Shown in pieces: positions 2,953 to 20,947 of a stretch of DNA of 26,593 nucleotides (the stretch's first letter is position 1; each line of letters begins with the position of its first letter). The notes below the pieces were generated by a model. The model did not search any database and had not been told where the DNA came from. It saw only the letters and a list, made by a program, of their open reading frames with translations. The translations under genes were made by a program, and so were the position numbers. Origin of the DNA: a virus; UHGV virus genome UHGV-1483403, one strand, 5' to 3'.

Positions 2953-3138
2953 TTATTCGCGAGCTTTGAGCATTGCGTCTGCCATCGCATAAGCTTCTTT
3001 AGCAAGTGGTTCGTTGTCATAAAGCCTGTCTGGATTTGCACAAACTCCCTGCATGAACTTTGCTGCGAAGTAATCACGTAATGTCGCATCACTTGCCATT
3101 TCTGGGCGTTTGATATCTGCTTCATAAAACTCGCACAT
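2953..3138 (-). CDS. small hypothetical protein (61 aa from ATG; the track ORF begins one codon upstream at GTG)
   Basis: Track ORF 2953..3141; its ATG at 3136-3138 overlaps the TGA of the upstream small ORF by 1 nt. Confidence 0.5.
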   Translation of the reverse strand: MCEFYEADIKRPEMASDATLRDYFAAKFMQGVCANPDRLYDNEPLAKEAYAMADAMLKARE

Positions 3139-3272
3139 CACTCACCTCCAAGAGCATTTGCAGCCTCTTTTGCTTTGTGAATCCATAGCAGAGCCATGTA
3201 GTACACAGCCTTTTCGTCGGCTCCTGTGATATCTTGCTCTGCCATCCATTTTGTAAATTCAACTGCGTTCAT
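3138..3272 (-). CDS. small hypothetical protein (44 aa, MNAVEFTKWMAEQDITG...)
   Basis: Hand-translated; GAGGTG Shine-Dalgarno upstream of the ATG at 3270-3272; stop overlaps the next start (TGATG). Confidence 0.45.
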   Translation of the reverse strand: MNAVEFTKWMAEQDITGADEKAVYYMALLWIHKAKEAANALGGE

Positions 3273-15998: not shown

Positions 15999-17621
15999 AT
16001 GCCGTTACCATTCCCCTTCGATTTTAAACATCCTGATTACCAGATGGTTTTTGAATGGCGGATGGAACGCTTACAGCGCATTCGCCAGAACCCTGAAATA
16101 TTGCCAGCACTAAAACAGTTTTACCGAACCAACCCGGCTCAGTTCATCATCGACTGGGGCATGACAACGGACCCGCGTAATATTGATTATGGCCTGCCGG
16201 TGACCATTCCGTTTTTACTCTTCCCTAAGCAGGAGGAGTGGATCCACTGGATTATGGAACGCTGGGGTAATCGGGAGAATGGTATTACCGAAAAATCCCG
16301 TGAAATGGGGCTCAGTTGGACCGCGATCGGACTGGCCTGCTCGCTTTGTCTCTTCAACAAAGAAATGGTTATCGGTTTCGGCTCCCGTAAAGAGGAATAC
16401 GTCGACAGCACCGGTGACCCGAAAGCATTGTTCTGGAAGGCGCGCAAGTTCGTGGAAACACTACCTGTAGAGTTTCGCGGTTCGTGGAGCGAGAAGAAGC
16501 ACGCGCCATATATGCGTGTTGAGTTTCCTGAAACTGGTGCCGTTATCAAAGGCGAGGCTGGCGATAATATTGGTCGTGGTGACCGTACCACGCTTTATCT
16601 GGTTGATGAGGCTGCATTCCTTCAGCGTCCTCTGCTGATTGATGCGGCGTTGTCACAAACGACGCGTTGCCGTATCGACCTGAGTTCGGTTAACGGCATG
16701 GCGAACCCGTTCGCGCAGAAGCGTCACGGCGGGAAGATACCGGTATTCACATTCCACTGGCGGGATGATCCTCGCAAGGATGAAGAGTGGTATCGCAGGG
16801 AATGCGAGAAAATCGATAATCCGGTGGTGGTGGCACAGGAACTTGATCTGAACTACAGCGCATCAGCGGAAGGCGTCCTGATTCCATCCGAATGGGTACA
16901 GGCTGCCGTTGATGCGCATATCAAACTGGGTATCCAGCCAACAGGCAAACGACTTGGCGCGATGGATGTCGCTGATGAAGGCAGGGACAAAAATGCCTTT
17001 TCCACCCGTCATGGCTTCCTCCTGGAAAATGTGCGGGAATGGTCTGGTGTGGGTAGCGACATTTATCAGTCCGTCGAGAAGGTCTTCGGTTTTTGCGAAC
17101 AGGACAACCTCGAAGAGTTTCGCTTTGACGAGGACGGGCTGGGCGCTGGCGTTCGCGGCGATGCACGCGCTATCAACGAACTGCGTAACGCTGCGCGCCG
17201 ACCGTCAATACTCGCCACACCGTTTCGAGGTAGTGGCGCGGTATTTGATCCGGACGACGAAGCGGTGCGCGGTGACAACGGACAGGCCGCCCGCCTGAAC
17301 AAGGACTTCTTCGCTAACGCCAAAGCCCAGAGCTGGTGGCGGTTACGTAAACTTTTTCAGAATACCTGGCGCGCCGTGGTTGAAGGTATGGATTACAACC
17401 CGGACGAAATCATCTCAATCAGCAGTAGCATGGCACTCAAAGATAAACTCATCATCGAGCTTTCGCAGCCGACCTATTCCATTAATGGTGTGGGGAAAAT
17501 CGTTATTGATAAACAGCCTGATGGAACCCGGTCGCCAAACCTTGCCGACTCGGTGATGATCAGCTACGCGCCAATGAATTCAGCCCTGAATATCTGGGAG
17601 CTGCTAGGGAGACAGGCCTGA
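15999..17621 (+). CDS. terminase large subunit (ATPase plus nuclease)
   Basis: Track ORF; 540 aa; Walker B-like [10 protein letters not shown]; deviant Walker A region around EKSREMGLS; position between the small subunit and portal. Confidence 0.8.
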
Positions 17622-19090
17622 TGGCACGAAACAAACAAGCCACGCGGCGAACGGCACAGGCCACCGCTGATGGATATGAGAACTTTGTCGCCCGCGTGGG
17701 GATGCAGACGCCTAACCAGCACTCAGCATCGACCTACCGGGCTAACTTCACCAGCCGCAACCGCATGCTGGTGGAATGGTCCTATCGTTCGTCCTGGATC
17801 ATCGGCGAAGCGGTCGACGCTATCCCGGATGATATGACCCGCAAAGGCATTCGCATCACTTCGGAAATTGATGCAAAAGATCGCGGCATTCTCGAATCAC
17901 AACTTGATGAGTTGCAGATCTGGGATGCGCTGAACGACGTGCTGAAATGGTCTCGCCTCTACGGCGGCGCGGTCGGCTTCATCATGATCGAGGGGCAGGC
18001 ACCAATGACCCCGCTGCGGCTCGAAACCATTGGAGAAGGCAAGTTTAAGGGCATTCTCCCGCTCGACCGCTGGATGATTAACCCGGCCCTGACCCGCCGC
18101 ATTAAAGAGATGGGGCCAGATCTCGGCAAACCTGAGTTTTACGACGTGGTGACCACTGCAACGGGCATCCCGGCCTGGCGCATCCATCACAGCCGCCTGA
18201 TTCGCTTCGATGGCGTCACGCTGCCATTCCAGCAGAAGATGACCGAGAACGAATGGGGAATGTCGGTTGTAGAGCGAATCTGGGATCGGCTTACTGCGTT
18301 CGACAGCGCCACTGTCGGCGCGGCTCAGCTGGTCTACAAAGCGCATCTGCGCACCTACAGCGTGGAGAAGCTGCGCGAGATTATCGCGCTTGGTGGCCCA
18401 GCTTTCGAAGCGTTGCTGAAGAACATCGACCTGATCCGCCAGTTCCAGAGCAATGAAGGCATGACGCTCATGGACTCGCGGGATAAGTTTGAAACGCATC
18501 AGTACAGCTTCAGTGGTCTGGATGACATCCTATCGCAGTTTGCAGAACAGATTAGTGGCGCTGTTGGTATTCCACTGGTGCGGTTGTTCGGACAGTCCCC
18601 GAAAGGATTTTCTACCGGTGATGCAGATCTTGCCAACTATTACGACCGGGTGAGCTCATTGCAGGAGCGCCGCTTACGGATGCCGATGCGCCGGATACTG
18701 GACATTATGCACCGCTCGGAACTCGGTAAGCCGCTGCCGGACGATTTCACGTTTGAGTTTAACCCGCTCTGGCAAATGTCTGATGTCGATCGCTCAACGG
18801 TGGCGTTAAACACTACCAACGCAATCAGTACGGCGCTGGGTGATGGTCTGATGACACTGAAAGCCGCTATGACCGATTTGCGCGAAAATTCTGACGTAAC
18901 CGGCATCGGGGCATCCATTACCGACGAGGACATAGAGAATGCCGAAGACGAAGCGCCGCCAGGCATCGGCGAACTTGGCGACAAACCGCCAGAGTCGCCA
19001 GGCGGAGATCCGATATCGAACGAGCCTACGGCAGATAGCGCGGGCGGTCGGGGATATCGTAAATGGGCGCTACGATGGTTCAAACGATAG
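17621..19090 (+). CDS. portal protein (DUF1073-type)
   Basis: Track ORF; 489 aa; directly follows the terminase large subunit; acidic, disordered C-terminal tail. Confidence 0.75.
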   Translation: MARNKQATRRTAQATADGYENFVARVGMQTPNQHSASTYRANFTSRNRMLVEWSYRSSWIIGEAVDAIPDDMTRKGIRITSEIDAKDRGILESQLDELQIWDALNDVLKWSRLYGGAVGFIMIEGQAPMTPLRLETIGEGKFKGILPLDRWMINPALTRRIKEMGPDLGKPEFYDVVTTATGIPAWRIHHSRLIRFDGVTLPFQQKMTENEWGMSVVERIWDRLTAFDSATVGAAQLVYKAHLRTYSVEKLREIIALGGPAFEALLKNIDLIRQFQSNEGMTLMDSRDKFETHQYSFSGLDDILSQFAEQISGAVGIPLVRLFGQSPKGFSTGDADLANYYDRVSSLQERRLRMPMRRILDIMHRSELGKPLPDDFTFEFNPLWQMSDVDRSTVALNTTNAISTALGDGLMTLKAAMTDLRENSDVTGIGASITDEDIENAEDEAPPGIGELGDKPPESPGGDPISNEPTADSAGGRGYRKWALRWFKR

Positions 19091-19712
19091 CGTAACCGAA
19101 ATAATGGATGCGCTGGAGCGCTACAGCGAAATCATCACCCCCTGGGCGACGAAGGTAGCTGAGAACTTTACCGCAGACATAGCGCGCCAGAATGAAAAGC
19201 AGTGGCGTCAACACAGCCGGAACATCAGTGCAGAGCTGCGCAACATGGTTGACTGCGCCCCGGTAGGCCAGGTGATGAAATCCATCGTTGCCGAGCAGAT
19301 TAAGTACATCAAATCGCTACCTCTTGAGGCCGCCGATCGGGTGTATGACATTCAGAACAAAGCCATCGAGGCAGTTGTGACTGGCGGGCGGGCTGAGTCA
19401 TTCGCGAAAGAGATAGCGGCGTCAGGTGACGTGTCACGCTTGCGAGCGAACCTTATCGCCCGTACCGAACTTGGACGCGCAACCGGCGCGCTCGATCAGG
19501 CGCGTGCGCTGTCAATTGGTTCGAATGGTTATATCTGGCGTACAGCCGAAGATGGCGATGTCCGGCACTCTCATCGTGAGATGGAGGGCAAGTTTGTCGA
19601 ATGGGGCCGACCTCCAACGCTTGACGGTATGACCGGTCACGCTGGTGAGCTGCCGAACTGCCGCTGTTACAAAGAAATCGTCTTCCCCAACCCTCATTCT
19701 TATCTCGCCTGA
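18939..19712 (+). CDS. head morphogenesis protein (SPP1 gp7 / Mu F-like)
   Basis: Track ORF; GAGGA Shine-Dalgarno 8 nt upstream of the ATG at 18939; overlaps the portal 3' end by 152 nt in another frame. Confidence 0.7.
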   Translation: MPKTKRRQASANLATNRQSRQAEIRYRTSLRQIARAVGDIVNGRYDGSNDSVTEIMDALERYSEIITPWATKVAENFTADIARQNEKQWRQHSRNISAELRNMVDCAPVGQVMKSIVAEQIKYIKSLPLEAADRVYDIQNKAIEAVVTGGRAESFAKEIAASGDVSRLRANLIARTELGRATGALDQARALSIGSNGYIWRTAEDGDVRHSHREMEGKFVEWGRPPTLDGMTGHAGELPNCRCYKEIVFPNPHSYLA

Positions 19713-19726
19713 ATCGCAGGTAAACC

Positions 19727-20947
19727 ATGAAATATTTTTTCAATACCCGGCTGGGGGAAACCCGCTATCAGCTGGCTGACGGCTCGCTGCTGTGCAAAGA
19801 CGTGCCGATAGGTCGAACGGGTAAGCAGCTCTACGGCGCTGCCGATCTGCCAAACCTCAAACCCGACAAGCTCGGTGAGATAGTCGTAACGCGTTCTCCT
19901 GAGCAGGTATTCAATCCGGCCACGCTCGCCTCATTCGAAGGGATGAGCATCACGATCCTGCATCCTGAAGATGAAAACGGGAATGTGCGGCTGGTAAATC
20001 CCGAGAACTGGAAAGAGCTTGCTGTCGGGCATCTTCAGAATGTGCGGCGCGGGACTGGTGACCAGTCTGATTTGATGCTGGCTGACCTTATCGTCAAAGA
20101 CGAAAACGCCATTCAGCTTATCGAAGATGGCCTGCGTGAAGTGTCGTGCGGCTATGACGCGGAGTACGAGCAGACCGAGCCAGGTAAAGCCGAGCAGGTC
20201 GATATTACCGGAAACCATGTGGCTCTTGTCCCCAAAGGCAGAGCCGGAAATCGTTGTGCAATTGGAGACAGAGACACAATGGCAAATCAAAAGAAAAACT
20301 GGTGGAACCGCATGCGTGCAGCCATCAAGACAGGAGATGCCGACACCATGAACGAACTGGTGGAGTCGGCTCCCGCATCGGTTACAGGAGATGAGGGGGA
20401 TTTGCCGCAGGGCGTTAATCTCAACATCAACCTGTCCCCGCAGCAACCACTACCGGACAAAGCACCAGAGATGGGTGGAGGTCCAACCGGCGACAGTGAT
20501 GATGACCTCAAAACATTACTGAAAGCCCTGCTGGCTAAGCTGGAAGGAAATGCCACGGGCGATAATGATAATAAGCCTGACGATAATCCGACCGGTGACG
20601 GCGAGGATGATGAAGAGGAAACCACGATTACTGGTGACTCAGCCTGGCGTGCCGAAGTTATCGTTCCGGGTATCGATCTGAGCCGTAAGATGAAACCGAC
20701 CGCGTTCAAACGCGAGGTTCTGGCTTCCGCTGACAAAACGCTGGTTCGCCAGATAGTCGGTGATGCGGATATCCGCAAATTACCGAAACAATCGGTCAAC
20801 ATGGCGTTTAATGCCGTGTCTGAGATTGCCAAAGGGCGAAACACCCGCGCCACCACCGGCGATGCACAGCGCCCAAACATGGGCATGACCAGTATCGCTT
20901 CCCTGAACAAACAAAACGCTGAATTCTGGGCAAACCGTAAAGGGTAA
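19727..20947 (+). CDS. putative scaffold / prohead core protein (DUF2213-like) with an acidic low-complexity linker
   Basis: Track ORF; 406 aa; central Asp/Glu/Gly-rich low-complexity region; position between the morphogenesis and capsid genes. Confidence 0.55.
   Translation: MKYFFNTRLGETRYQLADGSLLCKDVPIGRTGKQLYGAADLPNLKPDKLGEIVVTRSPEQVFNPATLASFEGMSITILHPEDENGNVRLVNPENWKELAVGHLQNVRRGTGDQSDLMLADLIVKDENAIQLIEDGLREVSCGYDAEYEQTEPGKAEQVDITGNHVALVPKGRAGNRCAIGDRDTMANQKKNWWNRMRAAIKTGDADTMNELVESAPASVTGDEGDLPQGVNLNINLSPQQPLPDKAPEMGGGPTGDSDDDLKTLLKALLAKLEGNATGDNDNKPDDNPTGDGEDDEEETTITGDSAWRAEVIVPGIDLSRKMKPTAFKREVLASADKTLVRQIVGDADIRKLPKQSVNMAFNAVSEIAKGRNTRATTGDAQRPNMGMTSIASLNKQNAEFWANRKG

What the first reader, a model, noticed from the sequence alone, without database searches (positions are those of the whole stretch)
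18939..19090. 152-nt out-of-frame overlap between the portal 3' end and the head morphogenesis gene
The gp7/F-like gene has a good Shine-Dalgarno and ATG at 18939, well inside the portal C-terminal coding region, which encodes an acidic, probably disordered tail. Overlaps of this length are unusual and may indicate coupled expression, or that one of the two annotated ends is wrong.
Basis: seen in the sequence. Interest (0 to 1): 0.22.

Follow-up and report, generated by a model that had tools for sequence, protein, structure and literature searches.

The report
Conserved portal / minor-head-protein gene overlap
The last 50 codons of a prophage portal gene and the first 50 codons of the next gene (a MuF/SPP1-gp7-like minor head protein) are read from the same DNA in two frames; the arrangement is real, kept across many bacterial genera, and mis-annotated in public records, but it is a further example of a known phenomenon.

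Summary
Portal ORF 17621-19090 and MuF/gp7-like ORF 18939-19712 overlap by 152 nt, with gp7 one base ahead in frame.

Neither end is wrong.
- **gp7 start:** gp7 residues about 20-55 are conserved in homologues down to 46% identity. The downstream ATG 19104, which SEN34, yong1 and RefSeq use, therefore cannot be the start.
- **Start signals:** an ATG sits at the 18939 column in 65 of 77 species-level relatives, preceded by GAGG made from the portal's D-E-D codons. Synonymous codon choice in the portal preserves both signals.
- **Portal tail:** the portal frame stays open for 134-179 nt into gp7 in 73 of 77 loci. That has about a 4% chance per sequence if only gp7 were constrained.
- **Selection:** both frames show purifying selection. 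Near-fixed synonymous codons in gp7's Y-D-G keep the portal's terminal L-R-W-F.
- **Origin:** outgroups keep the gp7 helix but end the portal earlier. The portal tail, which AlphaFold2 leaves unstructured at low confidence, is therefore probably the younger, overprinted part.

I found no significant RNA structure and no common frameshift site, and termination-reinitiation coupling is implausible at this distance. gp7 most likely initiates on its own inside the portal gene. This is a new member of a known kind, of modest interest.

The parts
17621..19090 (+). Portal gene (489 aa, Phage_portal_3 / DUF1073 / TIGR01555). Its last 50 sense codons and its stop lie inside the next gene.
   Evidence: PDB relatives are the Pam3 portal 8hds and E217 gp19 8fvh.
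18939..19712 (+). MuF / SPP1-gp7-like minor head (head morphogenesis) protein, 257 aa, starting at ATG 18939.
   Evidence: PF04233 covers residues 137-243 and TIGR01641 also matches. phrog_324 covers residues 5-255. The N-terminal 55 aa are conserved in distant homologues.
18939..19090 (+). Dual-coding overlap of 152 nt, with gp7 frame = portal frame +1.
   Evidence: A 134-179 nt overlap is present in 73 of 77 relatives. Both frames are under purifying selection.
18926..18930 (+). Shine-Dalgarno GAGGA for gp7, 8 nt before the ATG, made of portal codons E436-D437 within the D-E-D motif.
   Evidence: GAGG lies at -13 in most loci. The E436 codon is GAG in 59 loci and GAA in 10, against a gene-wide GAG fraction of 0.52. 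9 of the 10 GAA cases are loci that start gp7 elsewhere.
18939..18941 (+). gp7 start codon ATG, spanning portal codons N440 and A441 (AAT GCC).
   Evidence: The column is ATG in 65 of 77 loci, plus 3 GTG and 1 TTG. Portal codon 440 is NAT in 62 loci and NAC in 1, although AAT makes up only 0.30 of Asn codons gene-wide.
18933..18935 (+). In-frame TAG in the gp7 frame, one codon upstream of the ATG. It sets the 5' limit of the gp7 ORF.
18917..18946 (+). Portal motif I-T-D-E-D-I-E-N-A-E, the last predicted helix of the portal. It holds the gp7 SD and start codon.
   Evidence: The motif is conserved in all portal relatives, including those without the long overlap. Predicted helix 435-443.
19070..19081 (+). 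CTACGATGGTTC, which encodes portal L-R-W-F and gp7 Y-D-G-S at once.
   Evidence: gp7 codons are TAC in 70 of 70, GAT in 67 of 70 and GGT in 68 of 75, far from the downstream codon usage. These choices give portal R in 71 of 77 loci and W in 72 of 77.
19088..19090 (+). Portal stop codon TAG, formed by gp7 codons D50-S51 (GAT AGC).
   Evidence: The portal stop lies 80-116 nt past the gp7 E23 codon in about 70 loci.
18975..18977 (+). Alternative start TTG, which PGAP uses for the 245-aa versions. Judged unlikely.
   Evidence: This column holds a start codon in only 17 of 77 loci and is gapped in 33. The 245-aa clusters are listed.
19104..19106 (+). Downstream ATG used by the SEN34, yong1 and RefSeq annotations (202 aa). 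Rejected as the start.
   Evidence: The column is ATG in only 36 of 77 loci, and is ATT in phage vB_EcoM-606R2. Conserved coding sequence lies upstream of it.

Best explanation
This is a genuine, evolutionarily maintained out-of-frame gene overlap in the head module of a SEN34-like (Brunovirus-type) prophage.

The portal protein is translated through to TAG 19090. The MuF/gp7-like minor head protein is translated from ATG 18939, 149 nt upstream of that stop and one base ahead in frame. It uses a Shine-Dalgarno sequence (GAGGA) spelled by the portal's conserved Asp-Glu-Asp codons. About 50 codons are therefore read in two frames:
- In the portal frame they give a low-confidence, apparently unstructured acidic/Pro-rich tail that ends in a conserved basic-aromatic ...LRWF(K/T).. 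motif.
- In the gp7 frame they give a basic leader followed by the conserved helix AE..Y..SL..IA..VG.IV.G.YDGS.

Shown here: conservation of both ORFs, of the start signals and of the stop position, and purifying selection in both frames.

Inferred:
1. gp7's N-terminal region is ancestral, and the portal's last roughly 40 residues arose by 3' extension (overprinting) in the lineage leading to the Enterobacterales and Cupriavidus/Ralstonia prophages.
2. gp7 is initiated independently at its own RBS rather than by termination-reinitiation.
3. Ribosomes reading the portal tail run across that RBS. This may help keep gp7 sub-stoichiometric to the 12-mer portal, as for SPP1 gp7, which is present at 1-2 copies per capsid.
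For: **The gp7 N-terminus is real coding sequence.**
- Residues about 20-55 are strongly conserved in homologues of 46-73% identity.
- phrog_324 aligns from residue 5, and three other PHROG profiles align from residues 21-25.

**The start site.**
- The 18939 column is ATG in 65 of 77 loci, the 19104 column in 36 of 77, and the 18975 column holds a start codon in 17 of 77.
- In the window, TAG lies one codon upstream.
- Portal codon 440 is NAT in 62 loci and NAC in 1. Portal E436 is GAG in 59 loci and GAA in 10, and 9 of the 10 GAA cases are loci that start gp7 elsewhere.

**The overlap is conserved.**
- It measures 134-179 nt in 73 of 77 loci, with a median of 149.
- The portal stop falls 80-116 nt past gp7 E23 in about 70 loci.

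**Selection acts on both frames** (OLGenie-like counts on 84 pairs from 43 sequences).
- gp7 dNN/dSN is 0.16 (0.10-0.26).
- Portal dNN/dNS is 0.51 (0.32-0.85), against 1.33 (1.03-1.77) for a phantom frame downstream.
- Changes that are synonymous in gp7 and non-synonymous in the portal run at 0.50 (0.36-0.68) of the downstream rate.

**The portal frame is kept open.**
- The chance of an open frame with the gp7 protein fixed is a median of 0.04.
- Stop-creating T-ending codons are 20 of 780 in the overlap, against 31% downstream.
- gp7 Y45, D46 and G47 codons are TAC 70/70, GAT 67/70 and GGT 68/75, which preserves portal L-R-W-F.
- Xenorhabdus portals with a ~75-aa in-frame insertion still read into the same tail.

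**Polarity.** Eight outgroup loci keep the gp7 helix, but their portals end between -100 and +29 nt relative to E23.

**Disorder of the tail.** Residues 444-489 have pLDDT 26-46. Solved portal relatives align only as far as residues 413-451.
Against: - There is no direct protein or ribosome evidence for either end.
- The pairwise comparisons are not phylogenetically independent, and the bootstrap resamples codons only.
- NN and NS (or SN) sites sit at different codon positions. Part of the ratio could reflect position effects, and for gp7 residues 2-12 the test cannot fully separate the two frames.
- Lower synonymous rates near 5' ends can have other causes.
- Both AlphaFold2 models are of low confidence (mean pLDDT 57 and 63).
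- Curated pipelines chose other starts.
- The direction of overprinting rests on eight outgroup loci without a rooted tree.
- The idea that the overlap sets stoichiometry by RBS occlusion is untested.
Confidence: 0.8

Rival explanations
1. No real overlap: gp7 starts at the downstream ATG 19104 (202 aa), as annotated for SEN34, yong1 and RefSeq E. coli. On this view the upstream ORF extension is accidental.
For: GenBank and RefSeq annotations use this start. Palleja et al. 2008 found that most annotated co-directional overlaps above 60 bp are 5'-extension errors.
Against: - Residues 20-55 upstream of M56 are among the best-conserved parts of the protein in homologues down to 46% identity, including loci with no overlap.
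- The column is ATG in only 36 of 77 loci, and is ATT in phage vB_EcoM-606R2.
- gp7-frame dNN/dSN is 0.07-0.13 over residues 22-49.
- PHROG profiles cover the region.
Confidence: 0.03
2. The overlap is real but shorter: gp7 initiates at an internal codon such as TTG 18975 (the PGAP 245-aa model, giving a 116-nt overlap). On this view the first 12 codons are not translated.
For: Many NCBI clusters are 244-245 aa. Several distant homologues are annotated with M at that column. The selection test for residues 2-12 is confounded by portal constraint.
Against: - That column holds a start codon in only 17 of 77 loci and is gapped in 33, whereas ATG plus GAGG at the 18939 column is near-universal.
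- Synonymous portal codons are biased to keep that ATG and SD, and they lose the bias exactly where gp7 starts elsewhere.
- A basic N-terminal leader is also present in outgroups without the overlap.
Confidence: 0.1
3. The portal tail is a functionless read-through. The portal frame merely happens to be open over gp7's 5' region, and the apparent conservation of the tail is a by-product of selection on gp7.
For: - The tail is predicted to be disordered and is partly low-complexity.
- Portal dNN/dNS is not below 1 in the 3' half of the overlap (0.73-1.23 with wide intervals).
- Solved relatives lack the tail.
Against: - The chance of an open frame is about 0.04 per sequence, yet the frame is open in 73 of 77 lineages.
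- gp7-synonymous changes are halved in both halves of the overlap.
- gp7 synonymous codons at Y45, D46 and G47 are nearly fixed in the forms that give portal R-W-F.
- An in-frame 75-aa insertion in Xenorhabdus portals keeps the tail.
Confidence: 0.06
4. The overlap serves a programmed +1 (or -2) ribosomal frameshift, so that a fraction of ribosomes make a portal-MuF fusion of about 696 aa alongside the two separate proteins.
For: - gp7 lies in the +1 frame of the portal.
- PHROG 'portal protein' profiles phrog_2662 and phrog_859 contain a MuF-like C-terminal part, so natural fusions exist in other phages.
- 696-697-aa fusion ORFs occur in public assemblies.
- SPP1 gp7 binds the portal (PMC6316719).
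Against: - The four fusion ORFs are singletons and switch frame at four different places, as random indels would.
- gp7 has its own conserved SD and ATG.
- No significant RNA structure was found.
- The portal stop position varies by several codons between clades, so a stop-dependent +1 site is not conserved.
- I did not run a dedicated search for shift-prone motifs.
Confidence: 0.04
5. The nucleotide conservation in 18939-19090 reflects a DNA or RNA element, such as a packaging site or a regulatory structure, rather than dual coding.
For: The region is more conserved than its flanks. The packaging site of SEN34-type phages is unidentified (PMC5261728).
Against: - The substitution pattern follows the codon structure of both frames.
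- Folding z-scores are -1.25 and -0.91, which are not significant.
- Both ORFs stay open across indels.
Confidence: 0.02

Closest known systems
Portal / MuF gene pairs of tailed phages (SPP1 gene 6 / gene 7; Mu portal / F)
   Same: The MuF-domain gene lies immediately downstream of the portal gene, as described for the superfamily (PMC5576092). The Pfam PF04233 and TIGR01641 domains are present. By analogy with SPP1 gp7, the expected role is a low-copy, portal-bound internal head protein.
   Different: Here the two genes share about 150 nt in different frames, and this is conserved. No such overlap is mentioned in the MuF survey or the SPP1 genome paper that I read, though I did not inspect the SPP1 or Mu sequences myself. 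Portal binding and copy number are not known for this protein.
Out-of-frame overlapping (overprinted) genes of phages and viruses, such as lambda Rz/Rz1, the phiX174 overlaps and the MS2 lysis gene (from general knowledge; reviews PMC8227390 and PMC6195259 appeared but were not read)
   Same: One DNA stretch is read in two frames and both products are under selection. The younger frame encodes a region that AlphaFold2 leaves unstructured at low confidence and that is compositionally biased.
   Different: This is a terminal overlap between two old, conserved structural genes, with a 3' extension of one running over the 5' end of the other. It is not a small novel gene embedded in another. It lies in a large dsDNA temperate phage, where genome compression is a weak argument.
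holD/rimI overlap of Enterobacteria, the longest genuine co-directional overlap found by Palleja et al. 2008
   Same: It is co-directional, conserved among genera, and both protein ends are conserved.
   Different: holD/rimI overlap by 32-56 bp. This overlap is 134-179 nt, about three times longer, and it lies in a prophage.
Programmed-frameshift gene pairs of phage morphogenesis modules (lambda G/GT-type tail chaperones; SPP1 17.1/17.1*)
   Same: Two overlapping frames in a late structural operon. The SPP1 example is a +1 shift.
   Different: Those pairs share an N-terminus and have no independent start for the second frame. Here the second frame has its own conserved SD and ATG, and no conserved shift site was seen.
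Natural portal-MuF fusion proteins (phrog_2662, phrog_859)
   Same: The MuF part, from about gp7 residue 25 onward, follows the portal's C-terminus, so the same two modules sit next to each other.
   Different: In those phages there is one polypeptide. Here there are two proteins, with the junction region encoded twice in different frames.

Membership tests
MuF / SPP1 gp7 minor head protein family (PF04233, TIGR01641) | Significant match to the family domain above the curated threshold | tested here: met
   PF04233 scores 64.0 bits against a cut-off of 29.6, over residues 137-243. TIGR01641 scores 42.9 against 39.65. phrog_324 'head morphogenesis' has E = 1.9e-88.
MuF / SPP1 gp7 minor head protein family (PF04233, TIGR01641) | Gene located immediately downstream of the portal gene in the packaging/head module | tested here: met
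   The gene order is TerL, portal, gp7, DUF2213, cement protein, major capsid protein. The same order is seen in SEN34, yong1 and the E. coli prophage. The context criterion comes from PMC5576092.
MuF / SPP1 gp7 minor head protein family (PF04233, TIGR01641) | Binds the portal and is packaged in a few copies inside the capsid | not testable with these tools
   This is known only for SPP1 gp7. No structure of a relative has been solved.
Phage portal protein, Phage_portal_3 / DUF1073 / HI1409 family | Significant match to the family profile and to solved portal structures | tested here: met
   PF06381 scores 354.8 bits and TIGR01555 scores 246 bits. PDB matches are the Pam3 portal 8hds at E = 1e-35 and E217 gp19 8fvh at E = 1e-13.
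Genuine dual-coding (overprinted) gene overlap | Both ORFs and their overlap are conserved in diverged relatives | tested here: met
   The overlap is 134-179 nt in 73 of 77 species-level loci spanning 46-98% gp7 identity.
Genuine dual-coding (overprinted) gene overlap | Purifying selection detectable in both frames within the overlap | tested here: met
   gp7 dNN/dSN is 0.16. Portal dNN/dNS is 0.51 against a control of 1.33. dSN is halved. Site-specific synonymous-codon fixation is seen in both directions.
Genuine dual-coding (overprinted) gene overlap | Both products shown to be translated from the overlap by proteomics or ribosome profiling | not testable with these tools
   I found no such data. 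The SEN34 paper contains no mass spectrometry.
Translational coupling by termination-reinitiation | The stop codon of the upstream gene overlaps or lies within a few nucleotides of the downstream start (ATGA or TGATG type) | tested here: not met
   The portal stop (19088-19090) lies 149 nt downstream of the gp7 ATG. By contrast the TerL/portal junction is TGATG.
Programmed ribosomal frameshift pair | A conserved shift-prone site, usually with a stimulatory element, and no independent start for the second frame | tested here: not met
   A conserved independent SD and ATG are present. Fusion ORFs in databases switch frame at four different sites. No significant structure was found. I did not run a dedicated motif search.

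The most novel reading that the evidence does not exclude
The shared 150 nt may encode the two halves of one interface. On this reading the portal's acidic tail, with its LRWF end, and the basic N-terminal leader and helix of gp7 contact each other, or compete for the same partner or DNA, inside the procapsid. Encoding both in one stretch of DNA would lock their co-evolution and set the gp7:portal ratio through ribosome traffic over the gp7 RBS. A variant of the idea is that a small fraction of ribosomes shift +1 in the overlap to make a portal-MuF fusion, like the natural fusions seen in other phages.
Probability: 0.08. Interest if true: 0.6.

Novelty: new member of a known kind. Interest (0 to 1): 0.33.

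Why it matters
- **Annotation.** Near-identical copies of this minor head protein are annotated with four different starts (257, 244-245, 202 and 176 aa). The RefSeq and phage-record versions that avoid the overlap cut off a conserved N-terminal helix of about 55 residues. The module occurs in 382 of 5,426 complete E. coli genomes. It also occurs in many other Enterobacterales, so the error has spread widely.
- **Structural work.** Cryo-EM of SEN34-, Pam3- or E217-like heads needs the correct ends of both proteins to assign density inside the portal vertex.
- **Overlapping genes.** This is a clear, deeply conserved co-directional overlap about three times longer than the longest genuine one accepted in the classic survey of prokaryotic genomes (56 bp). 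It shows measurable selection in both frames and a probable direction of overprinting.
- **Experimental use.** The overlap allows clean genetics. Single-base changes that are silent in one frame can knock out the other product.

Tried and rejected
- **RNA structure masking the gp7 RBS** (a coupling model). Folding 121 nt and 261 nt gave z = -1.25 and -0.91, which are not significant. I did not pursue covariation, because dual coding leaves little free variation.
- **Programmed frameshift.** Portal-MuF fusion ORFs in databases looked suggestive, but they are singletons with four different junctions.
- **Structure prediction of gp7**, to ask whether the N-terminal helix packs on the MuF domain. 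Mean pLDDT was 57, too low to use. I therefore ran no fold searches. gp7 has no solved relative by sequence.
- **Naive portal dN/dS in the overlap** (0.93). This is meaningless, because portal third positions are gp7 second positions. I replaced it with NN/NS/SN/SS counts and a phantom-frame control.
- **First stop-avoidance count.** It flagged 28 loci as having a stop, mostly because their native portal stop falls a codon or more inside my fixed test range; four (L052, L062, L082, L083) are the short-overlap outgroups. I used the per-locus overlap lengths instead.
- **Minus-strand ORF 18640..19083.** It is not conserved.
- **Literature searches.** I found no description of this overlap.
Full report
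**1. The observation**

The six-frame ORF list shows two ORFs on the + strand.
- The first is 17621..19090 (489 aa). It is a portal protein: Pfam Phage_portal_3 scores 354.8 bits over residues 55-402. TIGR01555 also matches. The solved relatives are the Pam3 portal 8hds and E217 gp19 8fvh.
- The second is 18939..19712 (257 aa). It is a MuF / SPP1-gp7-like minor head protein, matching PF04233 over residues 137-243, TIGR01641 and phrog_324 over residues 5-255.

They share 18939-19090 (152 nt), and gp7 is one base ahead of the portal frame. The sequence shows GAGGA at 18926-18930, then 8 nt, then ATG 18939. An in-frame TAG at 18933-18935 means 18939 is the first possible start. The description is therefore accurate, with one correction. 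The portal tail is acidic and Pro/Gly-rich only in its first part. Its last 18 residues (ADSAGGRGYRKWALRWFK) are basic and aromatic.

**2. Context and annotation**

The window is a SEN34-like (genus Brunovirus) prophage head module, in the order TerL, portal, gp7, DUF2213, cement protein, major capsid protein.
- Nine phage records match the query region (17621-19712) at 82-93% nucleotide identity.
- 382 of 5,426 complete E. coli genomes match the query region, 338 of them over at least 80% of it, and the best match is 99.8% identical.

Public annotation of the gp7 start is inconsistent.
- SEN34, yong1 and RefSeq E. coli use the ATG equivalent to 19104, giving 202 aa.
- Phage vB_EcoM-606R2 uses an ATG still further down, giving 176 aa, because its 19104 codon is ATT.
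- Many PGAP proteins are 244-245 aa, which corresponds to the 18975 position.
- Prodigal-type calls in metagenome assemblies are 257 aa.

**3. Where gp7 starts**

An alignment with homologues of 61-73% identity (Xenorhabdus, Arsenophonus, Morganella, Providencia, Pantoea) shows strong conservation well upstream of M56. The conserved stretch is AE.RYRTSL..IA..VG.IV.G.YDGSNDSV.EI, and YDGSNDS is nearly invariant.

I fetched 80 species-representative genome loci spanning 98-46% gp7 identity. tblastn matches begin at query residue 1-23 in all but the frameshifted L016.

In a codon alignment of 77 usable sequences:
- The 18939 column is ATG in 65, GTG in 3 and TTG in 1.
- The 19104 column is ATG in only 36.
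- The 18975 column holds a start codon in 17 and is gapped in 33.
- GAGG lies 13 nt upstream of the ATG in most loci.

A sharper test uses the portal's own synonymous choices.
- The ATG spans portal codons 440-441 (AAT GCC). Codon 440 is NAT in 62 loci and NAC in 1, although AAT makes up only 30% of Asn codons and GAT 49% of Asp codons in these portal genes.
- The SD comes from portal Glu436. That codon is GAG in 59 loci and GAA in 10, against a gene-wide 52% GAG.
- The GAA cases are, with one exception (L027), loci where gp7 starts elsewhere. These are Photorhabdus, which uses an ATG a few codons upstream, and outgroups.

The SD and ATG therefore co-vary as a unit. I conclude that gp7 starts at 18939. 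The residual uncertainty is that residues 2-12 cannot be cleanly separated from portal constraint. Even the TTG 18975 alternative would leave a 116-nt overlap.

**4. Is the portal tail real?**

With the 18939-type start, the overlap is 134-179 nt (median 149) in 73 of 77 loci. The portal stop falls 80-116 nt past the codon for gp7 Glu23 in about 70 loci.

Several tests argue that the open frame is maintained by selection.
- With each gp7 protein held fixed and synonymous codons resampled from the gene's own usage, the portal frame stays open in a median of 4% of simulations.
- Codons ending in T before AA/AG/GA would create portal-frame stops. They are 20 of 780 in the overlap against 31% downstream.
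- Near the portal's C-terminus, the 12 nt CTACGATGGTTC (19070-19081) encode portal L-R-W-F and gp7 Y-D-G-S together.
- The gp7 codons there are TAC in 70 of 70, GAT in 67 of 70 and GGT in 68 of 75. Downstream usage is 40% TAT and 53% GAT. These are exactly the choices that give portal Arg, Trp and Phe and avoid a TGA.
- Xenorhabdus portals carry an in-frame ~75-aa insertion upstream of a relocated gp7 ATG, yet they still read into the same tail...PIPNQSTKDSAGG..LRWFK.

**5. Selection in both frames**

I implemented OLGenie-style counts, using Nei-Gojobori sites split into NN, NS, SN and SS with gp7 as the reference frame and the portal as the alternate. The data were 84 sequence pairs from 43 sequences with downstream dS between 0.05 and 1. 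The bootstrap resampled codons.

| Measure | Overlap | Control or comparison |
|---|---|---|
| gp7 dNN/dSN | 0.16 (0.10-0.26) | 0.10 downstream |
| Portal dNN/dNS | 0.51 (0.32-0.85) | 1.33 (1.03-1.77) for a phantom frame in downstream gp7 |
| dSN relative to downstream | 0.50 (0.36-0.68) | similar in both halves of the overlap |

Both frames are under purifying selection. The portal tail is constrained more weakly (omega of the order of 0.5) than gp7.

The caveats are these. Pairs are not independent. NN, NS and SN sites sit at different codon positions. The portal signal from dNN/dNS is concentrated in the 5' half of the overlap, whereas in the 3' half it comes from the halved dSN and the fixed codons of section 4.

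**6. Origin**

Eight outgroup loci retain the gp7 basic leader and the helix motif (K/R)AE..Y...L(R/K).(I/V)A. They are Ochrobactrum, Chelatococcus, Chitiniphilus, Aquaspirillum, two Rhizobiales, Oxalobacter and Alkanindiges. Their portals end soon after the conserved ITD(E/D)(D/Q)I..A..PPP motif, between -100 and +29 nt relative to Glu23. Their overlaps are 0-92 nt.

The gp7 N-terminus is therefore the older reading frame. The portal's last roughly 40 residues are most simply a 3' extension printed over it. They are shared by the Enterobacterales and Cupriavidus/Ralstonia prophages. AlphaFold2 is consistent with this, though the model has low overall confidence. It gives the portal a last helix at 435-443 (DEDIENAED) and then pLDDT 26-46 with no secondary structure for 444-489. 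Solved relatives align only as far as residues 413-451. I did not build a rooted tree, so the polarity is inferred.

**7. How it probably works**

- **Shown:** two conserved ORFs, conserved start signals embedded in portal codons, a conserved stop position, and dual selection.
- **Inferred:** gp7 initiates on its own RBS inside the portal message.

Termination-reinitiation coupling is unlikely, because the portal stop lies 149 nt downstream of the gp7 ATG. The neighbouring TerL/portal junction is a classic TGATG. Folding of the region is not better than shuffled controls, with z = -1.25 and -0.91, so there is no support for an RBS-masking hairpin.

Ribosomes finishing the portal must pass over the gp7 RBS. 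This could lower gp7 initiation and fit a low copy number. SPP1 gp7 binds the portal and is present at 1-2 copies per capsid (PMC5576092 and PMC6316719). That link is speculation.

The overlapping code also ties the two compositions together. Lys and Thr codons (AAG, ACG) after G-ending codons in the gp7 frame read as GAA and GAC (Glu, Asp) in the portal frame. The basic gp7 leader and the acidic portal tail are therefore two readings of one sequence.

**8. Frameshift rival**

The portal search returned four portal-MuF fusion ORFs: P0121, P0125 and P0127 at 696-697 aa, and P0131 at 655 aa. A length of 696 aa is exactly 439 portal residues plus 257 gp7 residues. However, each is a singleton, and they change frame at four different places. 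One arises from a ~124-nt deletion. This is what random indels or assembly errors would produce.

PHROG 'portal protein' profiles phrog_2662 and phrog_859 do match gp7 from residues 25 (phrog_2662) and 50 (phrog_859) onward, so natural portal-MuF fusions exist in other phages. That keeps a low-probability +1 frameshift reading alive, but nothing here supports it.

**9. Comparison with what is known**

- The gene pair belongs to the well-known portal/MuF arrangement.
- The overlap belongs to the known class of out-of-frame dual-coding regions that arise by overprinting.
- It is unusual in length for a co-directional pair. Palleja et al. 2008 found no genuine case above 60 bp among 338 prokaryotic genomes, and their longest real one was holD/rimI at 32-56 bp.
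- I found no description of this overlap in the SEN34 paper or in full-text searches.

**10. Verdict**

The suggestion that one end is wrong is rejected, and coupled expression is unsupported. This is a real, deeply conserved 150-nt dual-coding junction between the portal and the MuF-like protein, probably created by extension of the portal over the 5' end of gp7. It is a new, well-supported member of a known kind. Its practical consequence is that many database entries truncate the minor head protein. Interest is modest (0.33).

Noticed in passing
window 17619-17623: The TerL stop and the portal start share one base (TGATG). This is the classic arrangement for termination-reinitiation coupling, in contrast with the 152-nt portal/gp7 overlap.
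   Followed up: partly
window 18640-19083 (- strand): A 147-aa antisense ORF spans the dual-coding region. In relatives all three minus-strand frames usually carry stops, so it is not a conserved gene.
   Followed up: yes
P0121, P0125, P0127 (696-697 aa) and P0131 (655 aa), relatives of window 17621-19712: Public assemblies contain singleton portal-MuF fusion ORFs produced by indels in the overlap. The frame switch is at four different positions, and one arises from a ~124-nt deletion.
   Followed up: yes
L022, L024, L025, L027, L031 (Xenorhabdus); protein P0163 (560 aa): These portals carry a ~75-aa in-frame insertion between the DEDI..PP motif and the tail. The gp7 ATG has moved behind the insertion and has a new GGGGAG-type SD. 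The 134-149-nt overlap and the LRWF end are kept.
   Followed up: partly
L016 (Apirhabdus apintestini), about 3000-3200: The gp7 homologue matches only from residue 68 and sits in the portal's frame. An indel has broken its 5' part, so it is either a pseudogene or a sequencing error.
   Followed up: no
window 18939-19712 against PHROGs: The 'portal protein' profiles phrog_2662 (positions 495-708 of 717) and phrog_859 match the MuF-like protein. Some phages therefore encode portal and MuF as one polypeptide.
   Followed up: no
window 19727-20947: The DUF2213 protein (406 aa) has a long acidic, Gly/Asp/Pro-rich middle region with repeated (A/P)TGD motifs after its N-terminal domain. It may be a scaffold- or protease-like head protein. 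I did not examine it.
   Followed up: no
portal homologues P0165 and P0239: UniRef names some of these DUF1073 portals 'Anti-CBASS protein Acb1-like N-...', which looks like a name carried over from a shared domain. I did not check it.
   Followed up: no
L059, L060, L068 (Cupriavidus/Ralstonia): In these loci gp7 lacks YDGS (it has GFPPGDP), and the portal tail ends ...GGR.GQWLSAWRS(K/R)...DD. That end is again basic with two Trp residues, which hints at a conserved tail property beyond what the gp7 frame forces. I saw this by eye only.
   Followed up: no
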